Of a DNA stretch of 39,875 nucleotides, positions 1-39,711 are shown piece after piece. Origin of the DNA: a virus. The notes under the pieces are model-generated. The model made no database searches, had not been told where the DNA came from, and saw only the letters and a program-made list of their open reading frames with translations. The stretch lies in UHGV virus genome UHGV-0140636. One strand, written 5' to 3'. The position numbers were made by a program, and so were the translations under genes. Position 1 is the stretch's first letter, and each line of letters opens with the position of its first letter.

Positions 1-1905
1 TGACCCGGCTATCTTTATGTAAACAATATCACCAACTACGGCAGACACTTTATCCAGCTCAATTGAATAGGTGAAGGCACCTGTACCAGCACTCATGATG
101 ATGTAGTACCTGGAGGGGTCAAGCCTTGGTTCTATTGTTAAAGTCCCAGCTGCTGCCACAGTGTAGTCGAGAAAGGTTCTCACCTGGAGGCTTGTATTTT
201 GTGGAAACCTCGCCCTTGCCCTGTTGAAAGCGGAATCCATCACTGCGTAAAGTGGGCGAACGTTGTTTCTGTAGGATCTAACCAGAACATCACTACCGTG
301 GAAGTCGTTGCTTTGTGATCCAGAAAGTGAGTGAACTGCCTCGACCTGGTTAATTGTCCCCTCTCCGACATAGCAGTCAGGGCTATTAACCACAAAATCG
401 ACGAACCTGATGTTTTGCGCAAAGTATGAGTTCAGGCGGAATGTGCTGTTTGTCGAGTTAACTACTGACTGAGCATTTGTGATTGAGTTGCCGACGATTG
501 CGTGAATAGAGTTGATAGTCACTTCCTGGCAGTCAACCAGAAGCACCGCATCGTAAACAAGGTCAGTGGCAAATCCATCACTTTTATAGACTTCAATGTT
601 TCCGATTTGCAGGGATGGCCTGTTTCTGGCTCGTACTCCGTTTTGCTTAACGTTGACGTGTACGTTATCGATAAATCCACCTGGCTCGCTGGCTGGGTTG
701 GTTAGGTCGATTCCAACAAATGCCCCAAGCCCTTCGCTGTCCTTGACAACAAACCCTTCAACGCCGTCACTCAGTTCGACAAACTTCCACCAGTTGTTTG
801 TGTTGAATCTGATGTCTACACCTACGTTACCTCGAACGGACTTCATCTTAACGGCCACGCACTGGAATTGCGTACCTTCAACCTGCTGCACGTTATAGCT
901 GCCGTATCCAGTGACATGCACTGAGCCGCTAAAAGCGTCGCCAATCAGCATGCCATTTACCCACGAATACTGTAGCACCGTCAGGTCATCACGCCCCTGT
1001 TGAGGACCGAAATGCGCTCCTAATTTGAACTTCGCCCGGTGCGCAGTGAACATTTCCTCCCTGAGTGGAGTAAGAATACCGTACCGACCATTTCCGTTTT
1101 CCAGGCGAATCATGAATTTTCCGATGTCGGTTTCTCCCTGGGAATAACTTGACTCCGGGTAGCTAACGGCCAGACCTACGGTCGATGCTGAGTCAGCATC
1201 CTTCACGCATAACTGGGTTTCTGTCCCAGCCGTATAAATTTTCACGCCATAGGGAACGGTTACGCACGCCGTTAGTGCGGAATCCCCTGTATGGTAGTTA
1301 TCCATATCCAGAGAAACACCATTTGTAGGGCTCACCAGATATTTTCCTGCTGGCCAATAGAGTACCTTAGCTCCGCAATTGGACCAGCGGTTTAGGGCAA
1401 GAGTGTCATCTGCAATACCATCTCCCTTTGCTCCGAAGTGGTAAGGGGTAAGGAGATAGGTGTTGTGCTGATGTTGAGTAATAGGTACAGAATCAGCATA
1501 TGGCTGTTTAACAATAACAAGCGCATCTCCTAGGCCAGTGTCAGGGTTTAATAATTGCTGTCGCAACTGATCCGGGTCATACTTCAGCACATTAGGAAAA
1601 TAGAACTGCTGCACACCGTATGCATCATAAACAGCCATCGAATGGCCTTGCACAGTTACGAACTTGGCAATCTGTCCGTTATATACCGGGTAACCAGCCG
1701 CATTAATGATGATTGGTTGCGAAACAGGAACGTGAGAACCGTCTTCGTTCTCTATATAAACCTGAATCTGGTTTTCAGGATTTACCGGGTCAGTGTCAAT
1801 TTTACCGATATAGATTTTGCCATTGGCTACGGCTTTAAAAGAACGAGCCATAGTGAAGAGTTGCGAAGGCATGCTCACTACAACATTGGCTGTAATGTCT
1901 GTCAT
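1..1905 (-). CDS. gp9: Tailspike protein, partial (start at 1905, 3' end beyond window start)
   Basis: Minus-strand ATG at 1905; N-terminus [34 protein letters not shown] matches the P22-family tailspike head-binding domain as recalled; open frame continues to position 1. Confidence 0.85.
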
Positions 1906-3204: not shown

Positions 3205-3459
3205 ATGGCTAGAGATGATCCGCACTTTAACTTCCGTATGCCTTTGGAAGTAAGAGAAAAATTGAAATTAAGAGCCGAGGCTAACGGAAGGTCAATGAAC
3301 TCTGAGTTATTACAAATCGTTCAGGATGCACTATCAAAACCATCACCGATTACAGGATATCGCGACGAAGCTGAACGCTTGGCTGATCAGCAGGCTGAGC
3401 AGTTCAAGGCTATAGTGTTTGAGACACTTAAAAAGATTTATGAAAAGGATTTGAAATGA
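3205..3459 (+). CDS. mnt: Mnt repressor
   Basis: MARDDPHFNFRMPLEVREKLKLRAEANGRSMNSELLQIVQDAL matches P22 Mnt. Confidence 0.9.
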   Translation: MARDDPHFNFRMPLEVREKLKLRAEANGRSMNSELLQIVQDALSKPSPITGYRDEAERLADQQAEQFKAIVFETLKKIYEKDLK

Positions 3460-3791
3460 GATTTCTATCACTGTTCTTGTTAGCAGTTGTCTCTTCTTCC
3501 AGTGCTGAGCTGCGCGAGCTTCAAACGGGTAATGACCTTCTTTACAACATTCAACAAGGTAAAAAGGGTGATGATTTTTCATCGCTTTACATTACTGGAT
3601 ATTTGCGCGGAGTAACTGACTCATTGATACTAATTGGTTCTCTATGTCCTCCTGATGGCGTTGACATGTATCAATACACCGATATCGTTGAGAAATATCT
3701 AAACAAAAACCCAGAATCAAGAAATGAGAGTGCAGTTATACTAACCGCCCTAGCAGTAGGAAAAACATTTCCGTGCAAAAAGAATCAATAA
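3456..3791 (+). CDS. Small secreted protein, unknown function
   Basis: ATGA start-stop overlap with mnt; N-terminal signal peptide MRFLSLFLLAVVSSSSA; two Cys in mature part; AAGGA RBS. Confidence 0.6.
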   Translation: MRFLSLFLLAVVSSSSAELRELQTGNDLLYNIQQGKKGDDFSSLYITGYLRGVTDSLILIGSLCPPDGVDMYQYTDIVEKYLNKNPESRNESAVILTALAVGKTFPCKKNQ

Positions 3792-3806: not shown

Positions 3807-4196
3807 ATGAAATTGATTATAGCAATGGCTTTCCTTGTCTTCTCGTTTTCTGTCTCAGCAGAGTGCTGGGTCGTTGGAGATATGCACGGAATAAGCTATT
3901 CAGAACGAAATAATTTTCAACCGGAAGAAGATGGTTTTAGTGGAACATTCATCATTAAGACAAACGGTGAAGATGCCAGTATCACATATTCTGGGACGGA
4001 TGCGGGCGGCATGGCTTACAAAGCATTGTCTAAAAACTCCATCATTGGAATCGGCGCGAATGGCGAAACTCAACGAGTTATCGACTCATGGGTAATACAT
4101 CCTAATGGAACAGTTTTAATGTCGAAAACCATTTCTGGTTATGGGAATATGGATTCAACCAAAGCTTTTGTTGGAAAAGTAAAAAGAAAATGTTAA
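3807..4196 (+). CDS. Small secreted protein, unknown function
   Basis: Signal peptide MKLIIAMAFLVFSFSVSA followed by mature domain with Cys near both ends; 16 bp downstream of previous ORF. Confidence 0.6.
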   Translation: MKLIIAMAFLVFSFSVSAECWVVGDMHGISYSERNNFQPEEDGFSGTFIIKTNGEDASITYSGTDAGGMAYKALSKNSIIGIGANGETQRVIDSWVIHPNGTVLMSKTISGYGNMDSTKAFVGKVKRKC

Positions 4197-4220: not shown

Positions 4221-6062
4221 TTACTGCTGTGTTGCCTCAGTAGCAAGCAGCGGCCTGATGGCATTTGCAGCGTTACTCAACGCTCTTTCATAGGCTGGCG
4301 TTCCAGCTTTAGTGTTTGCCAGACGTAAGAGAGCATTCCTTGCTGCTTTGGACTCATACAAACGCATCATTGCACCAAAGCCAGCCTCAAGCCCCATTGA
4401 TACACCAAGAGTCGCAGTTGCGCCAATCGTCCTTATCCTGTTGGCTTGTGATTGCCCCGTCTGAGTTACTACATTTGCGGTGTCTGACCTTGCTGTTTGC
4501 TGTAGAACTTCATGAAGAGCATCAAGCTCTTTCATGTGCTTTCCAGAAAAAATAGTGTTGTAAATTTCACCGCCTGACTGAGATTTCAGCTTATTAACTT
4601 CAGTGATGAACTTGGCTGGAGAGTCACCGGCCTTTTCCGCTATTTTGCTGACGTAAGCTGCACGCATAGCATCTTTCCCTTTATCATCCAGGGCGCTCCA
4701 TATTCGTTTCACGTCAGATGGTTTTCTGCTTAATACAACGGTATTTATAAGTTCAGGACTGGCTTCACTGCTTGCCTTGTTGAGCTTGTTAGCAATGTTT
4801 TTATTAAGCACCTTATTATAAACGTTTGCATAATCGGAATTTGCTTTAAGGTATTTTGCTGCGTCTGATGCACCGAGGTTTTTAGCAACTGCGTTACGAA
4901 GGTCTTTTGACATTGCATTCTCTACCATATTGGTAGCTGCTTTTGCCTGGTTGGGGAAGACCATAGCATCTCCCTGAACATTAGATCTAAATGCTGTTCT
5001 GTGCTGACGCAAGAGATCAAACGTAACATCCAAATCAGTTGCAGGGTTTGCTAATTCTTCACGTAGGTTACGCAAGGATGTAAGCAGGCTTTGATTGGCA
5101 GACGTCCCAAGCCGTTCCTGTCTTGCGATCGCTGTATTCAGAGCATTCATGGTATTTGTGGTATCAACTGCGGCATTACCCATTTTATTGGTGACGTCAT
5201 TGATAACAGCGCCAGCGGCATCCTTCCGCCCCCTTAACGTGGTGGTAAGAGATTTCACCACATCATCAGGGTTGTACTCACCAAAACGGTCAAAATAATT
5301 ACTTACCAGCTTACTACGCGTTGCATATTGCTCCGCTCGCTTTGAGCCTGTCCCGAGCAAAGCCCCCTCGGCATCCTGAGTTAGGCCGCGAGTGAAAGCA
5401 TTTTTCGGCGGGATAACATCAGATGTCATTGGTGTCACGCCCATCGATTCTGATGTGGCAATTTTCTTCGCCACTTCTGGCGCAATATCACCTTTTATAG
5501 CCGTTATTCCACGCCCTATTCCCTTTGCTGCTGCGGAAAGAACACCCTGAGTGGCAAGGTTAACTCCGGCATTTTTAGCTGCATTTTGTGCGAAATCGCC
5601 TTTCTGATTTGCGGCCTCTGCCAGTGATCCAATAGCCATGCTTCCTGCCGTTCCAACTCCTGGAACTAAATACCCACCAATTGTTTCACCGGCTTGCGCG
5701 TAGGGGTCTGTCGGTCTGTCTACTGGACGATAAACATCATCCAAAACCTTGGGTCCACCAAGCCCCTGACTGATTGCATTAATCAGACTTGCGCCGCCCT
5801 GCAATACGTCAAATGGTATGTTTACCAGACCACGACCAGCCTGTTCTGCAATTTGCCCTGCACTTTGACCACCAGTGAGCCAATCGCCAGCTTGTTGCAT
5901 CAATGATGGTTCTTCCCGTGTTGGTGCATTATTGGCCTGATTAACTATTTGTTGCTGAACAGCCTGACCAGCAAAATACTCATCAATGGCGGTGCCAATA
6001 TCTTCGGTGCTCGTACCATCAGGAAAGGTAAATGTCTTACCGTTTGCAGTTACTTTCATCAT
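4221..6062 (-). CDS. gp16: Ejection (injection) protein gp16
   Basis: 613 aa; position and size match P22 gene 16; start [16 protein letters not shown]. Confidence 0.8.
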
Positions 6063-18814: not shown

Positions 18815-19333
18815 TCACTTTGGCAGTCCGGGGATCGATATTTGCGCCTGCTGCTCAAGCCTTTTGATTCTTGCTATGAGTTGCGGTTTTTTGATCCTGC
18901 CCCAGCGGTTCAGCAAGCGTCCTGACATACTGGCAACATCCTTTTCCTTCATGAACTCCAGCATTAACTCGTTGTGCTCTCTTTGGTATGAGTGAGCCAT
19001 CTCCATCAGCCTGTCACGCATCCAATTAAATGCTTTGATAAACGCCTCTTTGATGGCGGCAGCTTTTTTGCCGGTAAACGACATGATGATGTACATCGCA
19101 CCGTCTTTGGAAATTTCATATTCAACATACTGATTACCCTTGTGTTCATAGGTAACCCGCGAAAAGTTGCTGGTTAGAAATTCATCCGAACAGTCTAGCT
19201 TTTCGATTTTCTGAATGATGTGGTGATGCTGCTTGTCGAAGTAAGCTGCTACCTTGCGGGAGGTTGTGATCACGCGATCACCAGAAACAACCACCATGTC
19301 CCGGAAATCGAGATTAGCCAATTGATGATTCAT
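18815..19333 (-). CDS. rha: Phage regulatory protein Rha family
   Basis: MNHQLANLDFRDMVVVSGDRVITTSRKVAAYFDKQHHHIIQKIEKL resembles Rha family; start placed at internal ATG 19333. Confidence 0.65.
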   Translation of the reverse strand: MNHQLANLDFRDMVVVSGDRVITTSRKVAAYFDKQHHHIIQKIEKLDCSDEFLTSNFSRVTYEHKGNQYVEYEISKDGAMYIIMSFTGKKAAAIKEAFIKAFNWMRDRLMEMAHSYQREHNELMLEFMKEKDVASMSGRLLNRWGRIKKPQLIARIKRLEQQAQISIPGLPK

Positions 19334-20113: not shown

Positions 20114-20586
20114 ACCTCAATCTCTCTGACCGTTCCGCCTGCTTCTTTGAATTTTGCAATCAGGCTGTCAGCCTTATGCTCGAACTGACCATAACCAGCA
20201 CCCGGCAGTGAAGCCCAGATATTGCTGCAACGGTCGATAGCCTGACGAATATCACCGCGATCAATCATCGGTAAAGCGCCACGCTCCTTAATCTGCTGCA
20301 ATGCCACAGCGTCCTGACTTTTCGGAGAGAAATCTTTCAGTCCAAGCTGCTTACGGTAGGCATCCCACCAACGGGAAAGAAGCTGGTAACGTCCGGCTGC
20401 TGTTGATTTGAGTTTGGGGTTTAGCGTGACAAGTTTGCGAGGGTGATCGGAGTAATCAGTGAATAGCTCTCCGCCAACAATGACGTCATAACCATGATTT
20501 CTGGTTTTCTGCCGTCCGTTATCAGTTCCCTCTGACCACGCCAGCATATCGAGGAACGCCTTACGTTGATTATTGATTTCCACCAT
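20110..20586 (-). CDS. R: Endolysin R (lytic transglycosylase)
   Basis: 158 aa essentially identical to lambda R as recalled ([39 protein letters not shown]). Confidence 0.9.
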
Positions 20587-21676: not shown

Positions 21677-22300
21677 CTAACGTGTGACCGCATTCAAAAT
21701 GTTGTCTGCGATTGACTCTTCCTTGTGGCATTGCACCACCAGAGCGTCATACAGCGGCTTAACAGTGCGTGACCAGGTGGGTTGGGTAAGGTTTGGGATT
21801 AGCATCGTTACAGCGCGATATGCGGCGCTTGCTGGCATTCTTGAATAGCCGACACCTTTGCATCTTCCGCATTCTTTCTCAACAACTCTCCCCCACAGTT
21901 CTGTTTTGGCTATATCAACCGCACGGCCTGTACCGTGGCAATCTCTGCATCTTGCGCCCGGCGTCGCGGCACTACGGCAATAATCCGCATAAGCGAATGT
22001 TGCGAGCACTTGCAGTACCTTTGCCTTAGTATTTCCTTCGAGCTTTGCCACACCACGGTATTTCCCCGATACCTTGTGTGCAAATTGCATCAGATAGTTG
22101 ATAGCCTTTTGTTTGTCGTTCTGGCTGAGTTCATGCTTACCGCAGAATGCAGCCATTCCGAATCCGGCTTGTGATTGCGCCATCCCCATAGCAGCCATCA
22201 CATCAGTACCGGAAAGAGAGTCAGAAGCCGTAGCCCGTGGTGAGTCGCTCATCATCGGGCTTTTTGGCGAATGAAATTTAGCTACACTTTCGAGTCTCAT
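21677..22300 (-). CDS. Q: Late antiterminator Q
   Basis: 207 aa matches lambda Q as recalled. Confidence 0.9.
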   Translation of the reverse strand: MRLESVAKFHSPKSPMMSDSPRATASDSLSGTDVMAAMGMAQSQAGFGMAAFCGKHELSQNDKQKAINYLMQFAHKVSGKYRGVAKLEGNTKAKVLQVLATFAYADYCRSAATPGARCRDCHGTGRAVDIAKTELWGRVVEKECGRCKGVGYSRMPASAAYRAVTMLIPNLTQPTWSRTVKPLYDALVVQCHKEESIADNILNAVTR

Positions 22301-22485: not shown

Positions 22486-22844
22486 ACGTTCTCCAGTTCG
22501 GTGATTTTTATTCCAAGCCTTCCGCCTGGTACTTTCACACCACGAATTACGCGAATGTCATCGAATTGCTCGTCGTCTTCCGCAAATCCGGCGTGGATAA
22601 GGGAGTCGAGTAAACCTTTCAGGATGTTGTCGAGGTCGCGGCGGCGGGAGTCTGGAACGTCTGCGATGACTTTGATGCGGAGTCGTGATTTGGTGAAAAT
22701 GTCTAACTTAAGTTGGCGGATGATTTGCTGAACGTCTTTTCGGTATTTCTGGCCTTTATCGCTGATGTAGTATTGGCTTCCCCGTCTTCGCCAGTAGGTA
22801 TTCACCGACGGCGGGTAAGGAAGCACAAACTGATATTCGTTCAT
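22482..22844 (-). CDS. rusA: Holliday junction resolvase RusA
   Basis: 120 aa; PPSVNTYWRRR...DSRRRDLDNILKGLLDSL resembles RusA. Confidence 0.85.
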   Translation of the reverse strand: MNEYQFVLPYPPSVNTYWRRRGSQYYISDKGQKYRKDVQQIIRQLKLDIFTKSRLRIKVIADVPDSRRRDLDNILKGLLDSLIHAGFAEDDEQFDDIRVIRGVKVPGGRLGIKITELENV

Positions 22845-23131
22845 GGCTTAATCTTTCCCTCCTTCAGCAGTATCGCCTGCGTCCTGATCACGCCTTCGAG
22901 GTGGTAAAGTCTGGCGTCTTTGTTGTCGAGATTATGGGTGCGTCGGTCGATTTCATCGTGACACGCGCTACAAGCCCATGCGCCGATCAGGTCGTCAGGC
23001 TTCATCCCCGTTCCGCAAATTCCAGCCATCCGGTAATGTGCCAGAACTGTAGTTTCAGGATTGCCATTGCATACGCCGTAAATACGTACCTGGCATTCTC
23101 TGCCGCGCGCTTCTTTGCGTAGATTAGCCAT
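22841..23131 (-). CDS. YbcO-like Cys-rich protein (DUF1364-like)
   Basis: 96 aa with CxxC pairs (CQVRIYGVC, CSACHDE); position upstream of rusA as in DLP12. Confidence 0.55.
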   Translation of the reverse strand: MANLRKEARGRECQVRIYGVCNGNPETTVLAHYRMAGICGTGMKPDDLIGAWACSACHDEIDRRTHNLDNKDARLYHLEGVIRTQAILLKEGKIKP

Positions 23132-23853
23132 TAAGCAGCCTCCCCTGTTACTTTCAGCATTCCGTTATCGAGCAGCTTTCTGGTCAGCCACTGTTGACCA
23201 CGCCCGGTGATTTTTGTGGTGAACGATATCTGTATTCCGTGATTTGTGTTGACCGCTGTTTCTTTCACTGTGAAATAGCCGCGATCCATATATTCCTGCA
23301 TTGGCACATTGCGCCGGGAACCTGAAGCAATAAGGATTTTGTGATCGCGCATCCACGCAAACAGTTTGTTTGGACCAATACCGACAACCTTTGCAAAGTT
23401 TCCAATCAAAATTCCGCTGGCTTCGCCAACTCGATCGGCAAACTCAACTTTAGGTGCGGCAATTGCGAGCTGGTTTTCCAGTTGCATTTTCTGCTCAGCA
23501 AGATCAGCAGCAAGGCGCAACGCTTCTGGTAGCGTTTTGGGGATATTAACCGCAGTTTCTTCAAGCTCTCGCCAACGGTCAACAAGACGAGCGGTGAATT
23601 CCGGCGACAACTGGGCTACAACGACAATACTGTCTCGCTTTCCTTGTTCGCCTTCGAATACATACACACAAAAACTTTGATTTAAGCCTAACCCATTGAT
23701 TCTTCCACAATCCTCAATTTGAGGAAGCCGGATAACACCATTTTTAGCCAGCGTTTCGATGGTACGTTTCACATTGTCATGACGCTTACCCACCAACTCA
23801 GCGATTTCAATGCTTGTCATTTTGATGGCATTGCCATTTATTAACTCATTCAT
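23131..23853 (-). CDS. Antirepressor-type protein, Rha-like N-terminus plus KilA-C/ANT-like C-terminus
   Basis: MTSIEIAELVGKRHDNVKRTIETL Rha-type motif; C-terminal region typical of antirepressors. Confidence 0.7.
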   Translation of the reverse strand: MNELINGNAIKMTSIEIAELVGKRHDNVKRTIETLAKNGVIRLPQIEDCGRINGLGLNQSFCVYVFEGEQGKRDSIVVVAQLSPEFTARLVDRWRELEETAVNIPKTLPEALRLAADLAEQKMQLENQLAIAAPKVEFADRVGEASGILIGNFAKVVGIGPNKLFAWMRDHKILIASGSRRNVPMQEYMDRGYFTVKETAVNTNHGIQISFTTKITGRGQQWLTRKLLDNGMLKVTGEAA

Positions 23854-24016
23854 CGCCTTCTTCCTCGTACATTGAGCTATTCGGATCGCTCATCAGTTCT
23901 GCGCAGCAATCGGAGCACACGTGAACTTCCAGCACATGCAGCTTCTGACCGCAGTTAGCGCACGTTAAAGCTCGCTCGACACTTCCTTGTTCGTAACTTC
24001 GATTTTGGTCAATCAC
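23846..24016 (-). CDS. ninF: NinF-like zinc-ribbon protein
   Basis: GTG start overlapping ninE stop (GTGA); [38 protein letters not shown] resembles lambda NinF; not in ORF track because under 60 aa. Confidence 0.6.
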
Positions 24017-24195
24017 CTTGTTTTCCTCGCACGTTCTCTAAGCCACCGGATATCCCACAGGTGAGCCGTGTAGTTGAAGGTTTTTACGTCAGATTCTTTT
24101 GGGATTGGCTTGCGTTTATTTCTGGAGCGTTTCGTTGGAAGGTATTTGCAGTTTTCGCAGATGATGTCGGTGAAACTTCGTCGCTGTCGTCTCAT
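24013..24195 (-). CDS. ninE: NinE
   Basis: [52 protein letters not shown] matches lambda NinE. Confidence 0.85.
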
Positions 24196-39350: not shown

Positions 39351-39711
39351 TCACATAAATAATTTAAAAATCATAGCATTAGATTACTTAATGATTAAAT
39401 AATAGACTGCAAAACGCGACAAAACACAACATATCCAGTCACTATGAATCAACTACTTAGATGGTATTAGTGACCTGAGACAGAGCATTAGCGCAAGGTG
39501 ATTTTTTGTCCTCTTGCGCTAATTTTTTGCCACACAACAGTCACATCTTCAAAAAATATGCAAAGCTTAGGGTTAATCGGCGGATGATTTTTGTCCATTC
39601 ATTTTGCGCGGGTAAGTTATGTGGTGGGTTATCGGCATCCTTTCCGTGGTTGTCATCGTGGCGACGCTTGTCGTTAGGTCACTTCTGCAGGATATTGATA
39701 ATGACTATTAG

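What the first reader, a model, noticed from the sequence alone, without database searches (positions are those of the whole stretch)
23131..23853. Second antirepressor-type gene inside the nin region
Besides immI ant (2006-2884) and rha (18815-19333), a 240 aa protein with a Rha-like N-terminus and KilA-C/ANT-like C-terminus sits between ninF and the YbcO-like gene, coupled by overlapping start/stop codons. Three antirepressor-class genes in one genome suggests cross-regulation of other resident prophages.
Basis: partly seen in the sequence, partly recalled or inferred. Interest (0 to 1): 0.45.

Follow-up and report, generated by a model that had tools for sequence, protein, structure and literature searches.

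The report
roi gene with self-encoded operator
The gene is roi, a common and already described DNA-binding protein of lambda-like prophages rather than a proven antirepressor, but comparing hundreds of relatives shows that it carries its own predicted binding site inside its coding sequence, matched base-for-residue to its DNA-reading helix.

Summary
A 240-aa ORF (23131-23853, minus strand) lies between ninF and a YbcO-like gene, with overlapping start and stop codons. It has a weak Phage_pRha N-terminus and a strong ANT/KilAC C-terminus.

It is the known gene roi. It is 88% identical to HK022 Roi, identical proteins occur in many prophages, and it is present in about 20% of complete E. coli genomes.

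"Antirepressor" is a label by homology. The only tested activity of Roi is sequence-specific DNA binding inside its own gene next to an IHF site (recalled abstract). Nothing here supports cross-induction of other prophages.

New here:
- A perfect 15-bp palindrome (23711-23725) sits 9 nt from one of only two perfect IHF consensus sites in the window (23689-23701).
- In 231 of 251 distinct homologues across Proteobacteria, a palindrome is centred on the same codon, but its sequence differs between alleles.
- The base at ±4 is a synonymous Pro/Ala codon position. It tracks residue 27 of the putative recognition helix one-to-one (Asn-T, Lys-C, Ser-A, Asp-G) with no exception in 111 non-redundant sequences.

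I infer a self-encoded Roi operator. It is probably IHF-assisted and autoregulatory within the early operon.

The parts
23131..23853 (-). roi coding sequence (240 aa)
   Evidence: ORF. 88% aa identity to HK022 Roi. 100% identical proteins in IMG/VR prophage contigs. 99.7% nt identity in an E. coli chromosome, and present in 1109 of 5426 complete E. coli genomes.
23557..23820 (-). N-terminal Rha-type (Phage_pRha) DNA-binding domain, aa 12-99
   Evidence: Pfam PF09669, E=6e-8, 33.5 bits versus cut-off 29.9. Two AlphaFold runs give the same secondary structure, H14-22, H25-37 and a beta hairpin 45-52/58-65, at low confidence.
23749..23787 (-). Codons for the putative recognition helix (aa 23-35, KRHDNVKRTIETL). 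Residues 23, 27 and 30 are the predicted base-contacting residues.
   Evidence: Residues 23, 27 and 30 covary with palindrome bases -2, -4 and -3. They are spaced i, i+4, i+7, on the opposite face from the conserved hydrophobic V28 and I32 (invariant) and L35 (nearly invariant). That they contact DNA is an inference.
23711..23725 (.). Perfect 15-bp palindrome TCCTCAAaTTGAGGA, gene nt 129-143, codons 43-48 (LPQIED): the predicted Roi operator
   Evidence: Seen. It is the only exact copy in the window, and near-matches occur at chance level. A palindrome is centred on the same codon in 231/251 distinct homologues, with allele-specific sequence. Covariation score 0.455 versus 0.120 shuffled and 0.05-0.08 slid.
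23689..23701 (-). Perfect IHF consensus AATCAATGGGTTA (WATCAANNNNTTR), gene nt 153-165
   Evidence: One of only 2 perfect matches in 39.9 kb. The other (39447) is identical to a site in the HK022 att/int region. The consensus is kept at the same offset in 42/251 distinct homologues, in 10 allele contexts. HK022 has it 12 nt after its own palindrome.
23665..23790 (-). Mosaic block (aa 22-63) in which this allele differs from HK022 roi. It contains the recognition helix, the palindrome and the IHF site.
   Evidence: DNA alignment A1: about 50% identity in this block against nearly 100% elsewhere in ninF-roi-ybcO.
23170..23478 (-). C-terminal ANT/KilAC domain, aa 126-228
   Evidence: Pfam PF03374, E=8e-33. 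AlphaFold pLDDT is about 80 for aa 150-230. No solved relative by sequence or by fold.
23846..24016 (-). ninF, overlapping the roi start codon by 8 nt
   Evidence: Pfam NinF; sequence.
22841..23131 (-). YbcO-family gene whose ATG overlaps the roi stop (TAATG)
   Evidence: Pfam YbcO, E=2e-44; sequence.
21677..22300 (-). Q-type late antiterminator, downstream in the same transcription unit (roi-ybcO-rusA-ninH-Q)
   Evidence: Near-identical to the annotated HK022 gpQ. rusA and ninH identified by Pfam.

Best explanation
The ORF is roi, a delayed-early gene of lambdoid phages. It is transcribed with the nin genes from the early rightward promoter and its start and stop codons overlap those of ninF and ybcO.

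The protein has three parts. The N-terminus is a Rha-type helix-turn-helix/winged domain. A long helix follows, which probably mediates dimerisation. The C-terminus is an ANT/KilAC domain.

Shown here:
- The gene contains, in the codons just after its own recognition helix, a perfect 15-bp palindrome. A perfect IHF consensus lies 9 nt further on.
- Homologues across Proteobacteria keep a palindrome on that same codon. Its bases change in step with helix residues 23, 27 and 30.

Inferred:
- The palindrome is the Roi operator, read by a Roi dimer. Residue 27 contacts the base pair at ±4 (Asn-A, Lys-G, Asp-C and Ser-T on the opposite strand).
- IHF bends the adjacent DNA and stabilises the complex, as reported for HK022.

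Most likely consequence (inferred, least certain): the complex sits in the body of the early operon and limits transcription through roi. This would be negative feedback that holds down the level of Roi, and possibly of downstream Q. When IHF is absent the feedback would fail and excess Roi would block lytic growth, probably through the KilAC domain. That would account for the published phenotype.

It is not an antirepressor in any demonstrated sense.
For: Identity:
- Searches show roi annotations, 88% identity to HK022 Roi and the same nin gene order.

Domains:
-.

Operator:
- The palindrome is unique in the window. The HK022 palindrome is unique in the HK022 genome.
- No second copy of a locus's own core occurs in 304 loci covering 769 kb.
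- A palindrome is centred at in-frame offset +99, +102 or +105 in 231/251 distinct sequences. The median elsewhere is 0%.
- Positions ±2 to ±5 are complementary in 231/231.
- Tool control: 90.8% of cells paired versus 72.3% shuffled, and covariation 0.455 versus 0.120 (0/500). Slid controls give 0.05-0.08. Pair ±4 shows all four Watson-Crick types.

Selection at the DNA level:
- Base -4 is the synonymous third position of the Pro44 (or Ala) codon. It nevertheless always complements the second base of codon 47.

Recognition code (111 non-redundant sequences):
- Residue 27 versus base -4: MI 1.76 bits, N-T 52, D-G 32, K-C 14, S-A 12, T-G 1, no exception, 0/2000 permutations.
- Residue 30: R/Q/L with C in 96, V/I with G in 15.
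- Residue 23: S-C 75, K-A 29; residues A and N also pair with C (4), and 3 sequences are exceptions (S-A, V-A, K-C).
- The Rhodoferax allele KRHDSVKRT carries CCACAAaTTGTGG, combining two elements of the code.
- The His27 class always has one T and one C half-site, in either order.
- The classes are spread over many backgrounds: 19 concordant changes on a rough tree.

IHF:
-.

Published background:
- HK022 Roi binds within its own gene beside an IHF site, and IHF stabilises the binding (abstract recalled; the paper is cited).
Against: - No binding experiment exists for this allele. I could not read the 1996 paper, so I cannot confirm that its footprint is this palindrome.
- The N-terminal domain model has low confidence (pLDDT 32-59). 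The placement of residues 23, 27 and 30 on a DNA-facing helix rests on secondary structure and helical periodicity only.
- Residue 27 and the palindrome lie about 50 nt apart in one mosaic block. Part of the correlation could therefore be co-inheritance.
- Base +4 also fixes residue 47, so a residue 27-47 protein contact combined with a nucleic-acid hairpin could mimic the pattern.
- The gene is usually internal to an operon (53 of 78 loci) and no promoter-like site lies nearby. Any autoregulation would therefore have to act on elongation, which is unproven.
- The abundant 933W-type alleles have a decayed palindrome and no IHF consensus. The site is therefore dispensable for at least some Roi proteins.
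Confidence: 0.6

Rival explanations
1. It is a true antirepressor. The KilAC domain binds and inactivates CI-type repressors of this or of co-resident prophages, like P1 Ant1, giving prophage cross-induction.
For: The ANT/KilAC domain is named after P1 Ant1 and KilA, and PHROG 63 is labelled 'anti-repressor Ant'. E. coli genomes hold up to 4 roi copies. Some Stx phages place a P22-like ant directly upstream of roi.
Against: I know of no experiment showing that Roi binds a repressor. The label is transferred by homology, and the authors of PMC9043618 state that the exact function of these domains is unclear. roi is made only after derepression. This genome already has a dedicated immI Ant with Arc and Mnt control. 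The strong conservation of a self-targeted operator points to DNA binding as the selected activity.
Confidence: 0.1
2. The main job is host-directed. The KilAC domain inhibits the SOS response/RecA (as in Listeria AriS) or cell division/FtsZ (as in CreP, P1 KilA and phi11 Gp07). The N-terminal domain and operator only set the dose. This is compatible with the best explanation as the effector step.
For: In AriS-like proteins the KilAC domain alone blocks SOS induction. That family includes members with a pRha N-terminus (PMC9043618). The single-domain KilAC protein CreP causes filamentation and co-precipitates weakly with FtsZ (bioRxiv 10.1101/2024.01.05.574328). The ANT domain is the better conserved and better modelled half.
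Against: AriS and CreP are distant relatives from other phyla, and nothing has been tested for Roi. The Stx2_14040 homologue keeps the N-domain and the palindrome but has a different C-terminus, so the module also works without KilAC.
Confidence: 0.25
3. The palindrome is not a Roi site. It could be an mRNA or DNA hairpin (pause, processing or recombination signal), or the target of another protein. The link with residue 27 would then reflect co-inheritance or a residue 27-47 contact.
For: Arms that covary are also expected of a hairpin. Some alleles have 21-25-bp palindromes able to form long stems. The local RNA fold does draw the 6-bp hairpin.
Against: - The RNA fold of the region is not unusual (z = -0.94).
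- The palindrome is centred on a single base, as dimer operators are.
- The His27 class carries a C/A mismatch in the would-be stem in 8 of 12 sequences.
- The residue-base pairs are the textbook contacts (Asn-A, Lys-G, Asp-C). The implied residue pairs 27-47 (K-G, D-A, N-E, S-V) make no chemical sense.
- HK022 Roi is reported to bind inside its gene.
Confidence: 0.1

Closest known systems
Roi of coliphage HK022 (Clerget & Boccard 1996)
   Same: 88% identical and the same length to within one residue. Same position and neighbours in the nin region, and the same two-domain build. A palindrome followed by an IHF consensus lies at the same place in the gene.
   Different: Residues 22-63 are replaced by another mosaic block. 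This changes the recognition helix (KRHDNVKRT versus SRHSNVKVS) and the palindrome (TCCTCAAaTTGAGGA versus CTGCAtTGCAG). The predicted DNA specificity therefore differs. The host phage is a P22-like podovirus, not an HK97-like siphovirus.
Rha of phi80 and P22 (orf201), including the window's own rha (18815-19333)
   Same: They share the Phage_pRha DNA-binding domain at profile level. According to PMC4936722, Rha also blocks phage growth in IHF-deficient hosts.
   Different: Only 17% identity. The C-terminus is ORF11CD3, not KilAC. The gene lies in the late region. There is no palindrome at the equivalent codon.
P22 Ant (immI antirepressor; the window's 2006-2884) and P1 Ant1/KilA
   Same: They are grouped under the annotation 'antirepressor'. 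P1 Ant1 and KilA share the KilAC domain that gave PF03374 its name.
   Different: P22-type Ant is Bro-N + P22_AR_C, has no similarity to Roi, and is controlled by Arc and Mnt. Repressor binding is proven for Ant, not for Roi.
AriS-like dual-function regulators (Listeria phi10403S; PMC9043618)
   Same: [quoted passage not shown]
   Different: A distant Firmicutes family. Its SOS-inhibiting activity has not been tested for Roi, and no self-encoded operator has been described for it.
Lambda O protein and ori (binding sites inside the gene of the protein that binds them, with type-specific co-variation among lambdoid phages; established knowledge)
   Same: A DNA-binding protein whose target lies inside its own coding sequence. 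Specificity and site are therefore inherited as one cassette.
   Different: O binds four iterons to start replication. Roi has a single palindrome plus an IHF site, and there is no evidence of a replication role.

Membership tests
Roi (HK022-type) | Full-length homology to HK022 Roi | tested here: met
   88% identity over 240/241 aa, E=1e-157.
Roi (HK022-type) | Located between the replication genes and Q, within the nin cluster | tested here: met
   The order ninB-ninE-ninF-roi-ybcO-rusA-ninH-Q is the same as in HK022.
Roi (HK022-type) | A binding site within its own gene, closely linked to an IHF site | tested here: inconclusive
   The sequence shows a unique perfect palindrome plus a perfect IHF consensus at gene nt 129-165, conserved and covarying.
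Roi (HK022-type) | Inhibits lytic growth in IHF-deficient hosts | not testable with these tools
   This is a phenotype. It needs plating on ihfA/ihfB mutants.
Antirepressor (P22 Ant / P1 Ant1 sense) | Binds and inactivates a prophage repressor | not testable with these tools
   I found no published test for Roi. It needs an interaction or induction assay.
Antirepressor (P22 Ant / P1 Ant1 sense) | Own tight negative control in the lysogen (Mnt/Arc, LexA or C4-type) | tested here: not met
   roi overlaps its neighbours inside the early operon. No promoter-like site lies in 23100-24100. arc and mnt flank only the immI ant.
Antirepressor (P22 Ant / P1 Ant1 sense) | ANT/KilAC domain | tested here: met
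   PF03374, E=8e-33.
Rha (Phage_pRha, PF09669) | pRha domain above Pfam's gathering score | tested here: met
   33.5 bits against 29.9, aa 12-99. This is a marginal score. Some close homologues have no precomputed pRha hit.
Rha (P22 orf201 type) | ORF11CD3 C-terminal domain and late-region location | tested here: not met
   The C-terminus is ANT, and the gene is in the nin region.
AriS-like regulators | N-terminal phage DNA-binding domain plus C-terminal ANT/KilAC | tested here: met
   The architecture is pRha + ANT. The family is described in PMC9043618.
AriS-like regulators | The KilAC domain inhibits the SOS response | not testable with these tools
   Needs expression with SOS reporters.

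The most novel reading that the evidence does not exclude
Roi-type Rha-domain proteins form a large family.

Each gene carries its own dimer operator inside the codons that follow its recognition helix. Protein specificity and target are then inherited as one roughly 100-bp cassette.

The family has diversified into discrete specificity classes that follow a simple residue-to-base code:
- Residue 27: Asn, Lys, Ser or Asp pairs with T, C, A or G at ±4. His accepts either pyrimidine.
- Residue 30: Arg/Gln versus Val/Ile pairs with C versus G at ±3.
- Residue 23: Lys versus Ser pairs with A versus C at ±2.

These classes would act like immunity groups. Co-resident prophages with the same class would cross-regulate each other's early operons, and those of different classes would be insulated.

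I found no description of this in the searchable literature. The 1996 HK022 paper may already give the single HK022 site.
Probability: 0.5. Interest if true: 0.7.

Novelty: already known. Interest (0 to 1): 0.45.

Why it matters
As a gene call this is routine. roi is in a fifth of complete E. coli genomes and in most Stx phages. The main practical point is that the 'antirepressor' label should not be read as function.

The self-encoded operator and its residue-base code matter for three reasons.
- They turn a 30-year-old, poorly understood phage regulator into a system with exact, cheap tests: gel shifts, single-residue swaps and synonymous operator mutations.
- They give a natural set of orthogonal DNA-binding specificities on one small scaffold.
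- They suggest how prophages sharing a cell could sense or ignore each other through roi classes. This is relevant to Stx-phage induction, because roi lies upstream of Q and the toxin genes.

Tried and rejected
- The original Roi paper could not be read, either by PMC id or by DOI. Text searches for Roi, pRha and intragenic operators found nothing further.
- Solved structures: no match by sequence.
- AlphaFold with a shallow alignment failed (pLDDT 40). With 81 diverse homologues the mean pLDDT was 60, but the N-terminal domain stayed below 60. The geometry of residues 23, 27, 30 and 47 could therefore not be checked.
- Foldseek against the PDB found nothing below E=0.1. The weak hits were mostly winged-helix proteins.
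- An mRNA structure at the palindrome is not unusual (z=-0.94).
- No internal sigma-70-like promoter overlaps the operator.
- No further operator copies were found. Matches in the window are at chance level, and no locus among 304 has a second copy. In HK022, one-mismatch copies exceed the shuffles (7 versus 1.2), but this was not pursued.
- The window's rha gene has no equivalent palindrome, so the feature belongs to the Roi-type subfamily and not to all pRha proteins.
- I considered a replication-origin-like role, by analogy with lambda O/ori and P1 kilA-repL. There are no iterons and no supporting evidence, so it is kept only as an analogy.
- The idea that the three 'antirepressor-class' genes are paralogues was rejected.

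Full report
**1. Observation**

The ORF is real. It runs 23131..23853 on the minus strand and encodes 240 aa. Pfam finds ANT/KilAC (aa 126-228, E=8e-33) and Phage_pRha (aa 12-99, E=6e-8, 33.5 bits against a cut-off of 29.9). PHROGs places it in phrog_63, 'anti-repressor Ant'.

The start codon overlaps the ninF stop (ATGAATGA). The stop overlaps the ATG of a YbcO-family gene (TAATG).

The window is a P22-like E. coli podophage read in reverse orientation. Its relatives are Gally, HK620, CUS-3 and Kapi1.

The gene at 2006-2884 is Bro-N + P22_AR_C, with arc and mnt beside it. The gene at 18815-19333 is Phage_pRha + ORF11CD3. The three proteins are not paralogues in any close sense.

**2. Identity**

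The gene is roi.
- It matches 219 phage records, where it is annotated 'DNA-binding protein Roi' or 'anti-repressor'.
- It is 88% identical to HK022 Roi.
- It lies in the same ninB-ninE-ninF-roi-ybcO-rusA-ninH-Q array.
- Identical proteins occur in many IMG/VR prophage contigs.
- The gene is in 1109 of 5426 complete E. coli genomes, with up to four places per genome.

Compared with HK022 the gene is a mosaic. It is nearly identical everywhere except aa 22-63, where DNA identity drops to about 50%.

**3. What is known**

From my memory of the abstract of Clerget & Boccard (J Bacteriol 1996, 178:4077; not held):
- Roi has a helix-turn-helix motif.
- It binds a site within its own gene, closely linked to an IHF site.
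- IHF stabilises that binding.
- Wild-type Roi prevents lytic growth in IHF-deficient hosts.
- Escape mutants have altered binding.
- The C-terminal half resembles P1 Ant1 and KilA.

The title and gist are cited in PMC3430580 and PMC4587872.

Rha was defined by the same kind of IHF phenotype (PMC4936722).

The KilAC domain has since been linked to inhibition of the SOS response in Listeria AriS-like proteins, some of which have a pRha N-terminus (PMC9043618). It has also been linked to a cell-division block, with weak FtsZ co-precipitation, in CreP (bioRxiv 10.1101/2024.01.05.574328). I found no test of repressor inactivation by Roi.

**4. What the sequence adds**

On the sense strand of roi, gene nt 129-143 (window 23725..23711) form a perfect 15-bp palindrome, TCCTCAAaTTGAGGA. 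Nine nucleotides further on, nt 153-165 (23701..23689) match the IHF consensus WATCAANNNNTTR perfectly.

Only two perfect IHF matches exist in the 39.9-kb window. The other, at 39447, is identical to a site in the att/int region of HK022.

HK022 roi has a different palindrome, CTGCAtTGCAG, at the same position, followed by its own IHF consensus. That palindrome is unique in the HK022 genome. The window's palindrome is likewise unique, and near-matches are at chance level.

**5. Family-wide test**

I collected homologous loci from three sources: species-representative genomes (80 loci, from Enterobacterales to Vibrio, Pseudomonas, Acinetobacter, Burkholderiales and Alphaproteobacteria), viral contigs and phage records.

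Of 251 distinct 210-nt segments, 231 have a palindrome with arms of at least 4 bp centred at in-frame offset +99, +102 or +105 from the Met12 codon. At other centres the median frequency is zero. Positions ±2 to ±5 are complementary in all 231.

The sequence differs between alleles. Examples are CCTCAAaTTGAGG, CCCCCAaTGGGGG, CCACCAtTGGTGG, CCGCCAaTGGCGG, CCTGCAtTGCAGG, GCGCCAtTGGCGC and GCTCAAaTTGAGC. Some alleles extend to 21-25 bp.

The pair-counting tool was run on 98 distinct windows.

| Measure | Observed | Shuffled | Slid controls |
|---|---|---|---|
| Cells paired | 90.8% | 72.3% (0/500) | – |
| Covariation score | 0.455 | 0.120 (0/500) | 0.05-0.08 |

Pair ±4 shows all four Watson-Crick types.

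One caveat applies. The windows were cut around the best palindrome within ±12 nt. However, 247 of 251 centres fall on the same three in-frame positions.

**6. Why this is selection on the nucleic acid**

Base -4 is the third, synonymous position of the Pro44 codon (Ala in one subgroup). Its partner at +4 is the second base of codon 47, which makes Glu, Gly, Val or Ala. A synonymous position that always complements a base 8 nt away cannot be explained by the protein sequence.

**7. Why the site is probably read by Roi itself**

The following counts come from 111 non-redundant sequences.

| Helix residue | Palindrome base | Counts |
|---|---|---|
| 27 | -4 | Asn-T 52, Asp-G 32, Lys-C 14, Ser-A 12, Thr-G 1; no exception |
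| 30 | -3 | Arg/Gln/Leu-C 96, Val/Ile-G 15 |
| 23 | -2 | Ser-C 75, Lys-A 29; Ala-C 3, Asn-C 1; exceptions Ser-A, Val-A, Lys-C (1 each) |

- The residue 27/base -4 pair carries 1.76 bits of mutual information, the highest of all residue-base pairs. The next best pair has 0.88 bits. No permutation out of 2000 reached it.
- Residues 23, 27 and 30 lie on one face of the predicted second helix of a helix-turn-helix. They are opposite the conserved hydrophobic V28 and I32 (invariant in both alignments) and L35 (nearly invariant).
- Read on the complementary strand, the residue 27 pairs are Asn-A, Lys-G, Asp-C and Ser-T. These are the classical direct-readout contacts (established knowledge).
- A Rhodoferax allele (KRHDSVKRT, CCACAAaTTGTGG) combines two elements of the code.
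- The 12 sequences with His27 always have T in one half-site and C in the other, in either order. This fits a residue that accepts either purine. It puts a C/A mismatch into any RNA stem in 8 of the 12.
- The classes occur in many different sequence backgrounds (the tree is rough).

**8. Limits**

- The correlation is partly confounded by co-inheritance within one short block.
- Base +4 also encodes residue 47.
- The structure models were too poor to check contacts.
- The 933W-type and PA5 alleles have decayed sites.
- The window's rha gene has no such palindrome.

**9. Mechanism**

The gene usually sits inside an operon (53 of 78 diverse loci), and no promoter-like site lies nearby. A bound Roi-IHF complex would therefore meet elongating RNA polymerase rather than a promoter.

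The model that fits the published phenotype best is IHF-assisted negative feedback. This would cap Roi and possibly delay Q. Without IHF, Roi would be overproduced and the KilAC domain would harm lytic growth. This last step is inference, and I give it about 0.4. I give the operator assignment about 0.8 and the identity of the gene about 0.97.

**10. Verdict**

- Its domain reading is right.
- Its functional reading (an antirepressor, and cross-regulation of prophages by three antirepressors) is unsupported.
- The gene itself is already known and very common.
- The unexpected part came from the comparison: a self-encoded operator with a simple recognition code, conserved across Proteobacteria. 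I could not find this described, and it is directly testable.

Noticed in passing
window 39447-39459 (+): The only other perfect IHF consensus in the window (AATCAACTACTTA) is identical to a site at HK022 20521-20533, just upstream of int. It is probably an attP-arm IHF site.
   Followed up: partly
window 3456-3791 (+) and 3807-4196 (+): Two small proteins with signal-peptide-like N-termini lie between mnt and the 613-aa ORF at 4221-6062, which is probably an ejection/DNA-transfer protein by its position. This is the place where P22 carries sieA (from memory). Their only matches are PHROGs of unknown function (phrog_3870, phrog_2651). They may be moron or exclusion genes.
   Followed up: partly
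L088 (Stx2a phage Stx2_14040) 868-1575: A Roi-type N-terminal domain with its own palindrome (CCCCAaTGGGG) and IHF consensus is fused to an unrelated C-terminus. It sits directly after cro, not in the nin region. The DNA-binding/operator module therefore moves independently of KilAC.
   Followed up: partly
L085, L086, L087 (Stx phages 1717, BP-4795, 933W), roi nt about 125-150: The roi allele of these Stx phages (helix SQHGNVRIS) has only a degenerate palindrome (CTTCAaTGCAA) and no IHF consensus. This suggests that self-binding has been lost or altered in these toxin phages.
   Followed up: partly
L331 (HK022) 31234, 31327, 33662, 3655, 21010: One-mismatch copies of the HK022 palindrome are more frequent than in shuffled sequence (7 versus 1.2, none of 100 shuffles reaching 7). 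Two of them lie in the helicase gene. They may be secondary sites or a compositional effect.
   Followed up: no
L085 (Stx2 phage 1717) 62-826: In this Stx2 phage a gene annotated as a P22-like antirepressor lies immediately upstream of roi. PMC3430580 also notes ant followed by roi in Stx phages.
   Followed up: no
window 1-1560: No P22-like phage record matches this stretch at the nucleotide level; the matches start at about 1564. No long ORF is listed there either, presumably because the tailspike ORF runs off the window end. The receptor-binding part of the tailspike therefore appears divergent.
   Followed up: no
L171-L207 (viral contigs), Roi-type genes with helix ESRHDHVKRSI: All 12 distinct sequences with His at position 27 have an otherwise long palindrome (TTCC-N-CCA...) in which one half-site has T and the other has C at position 4, in both orders.
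   Followed up: yes
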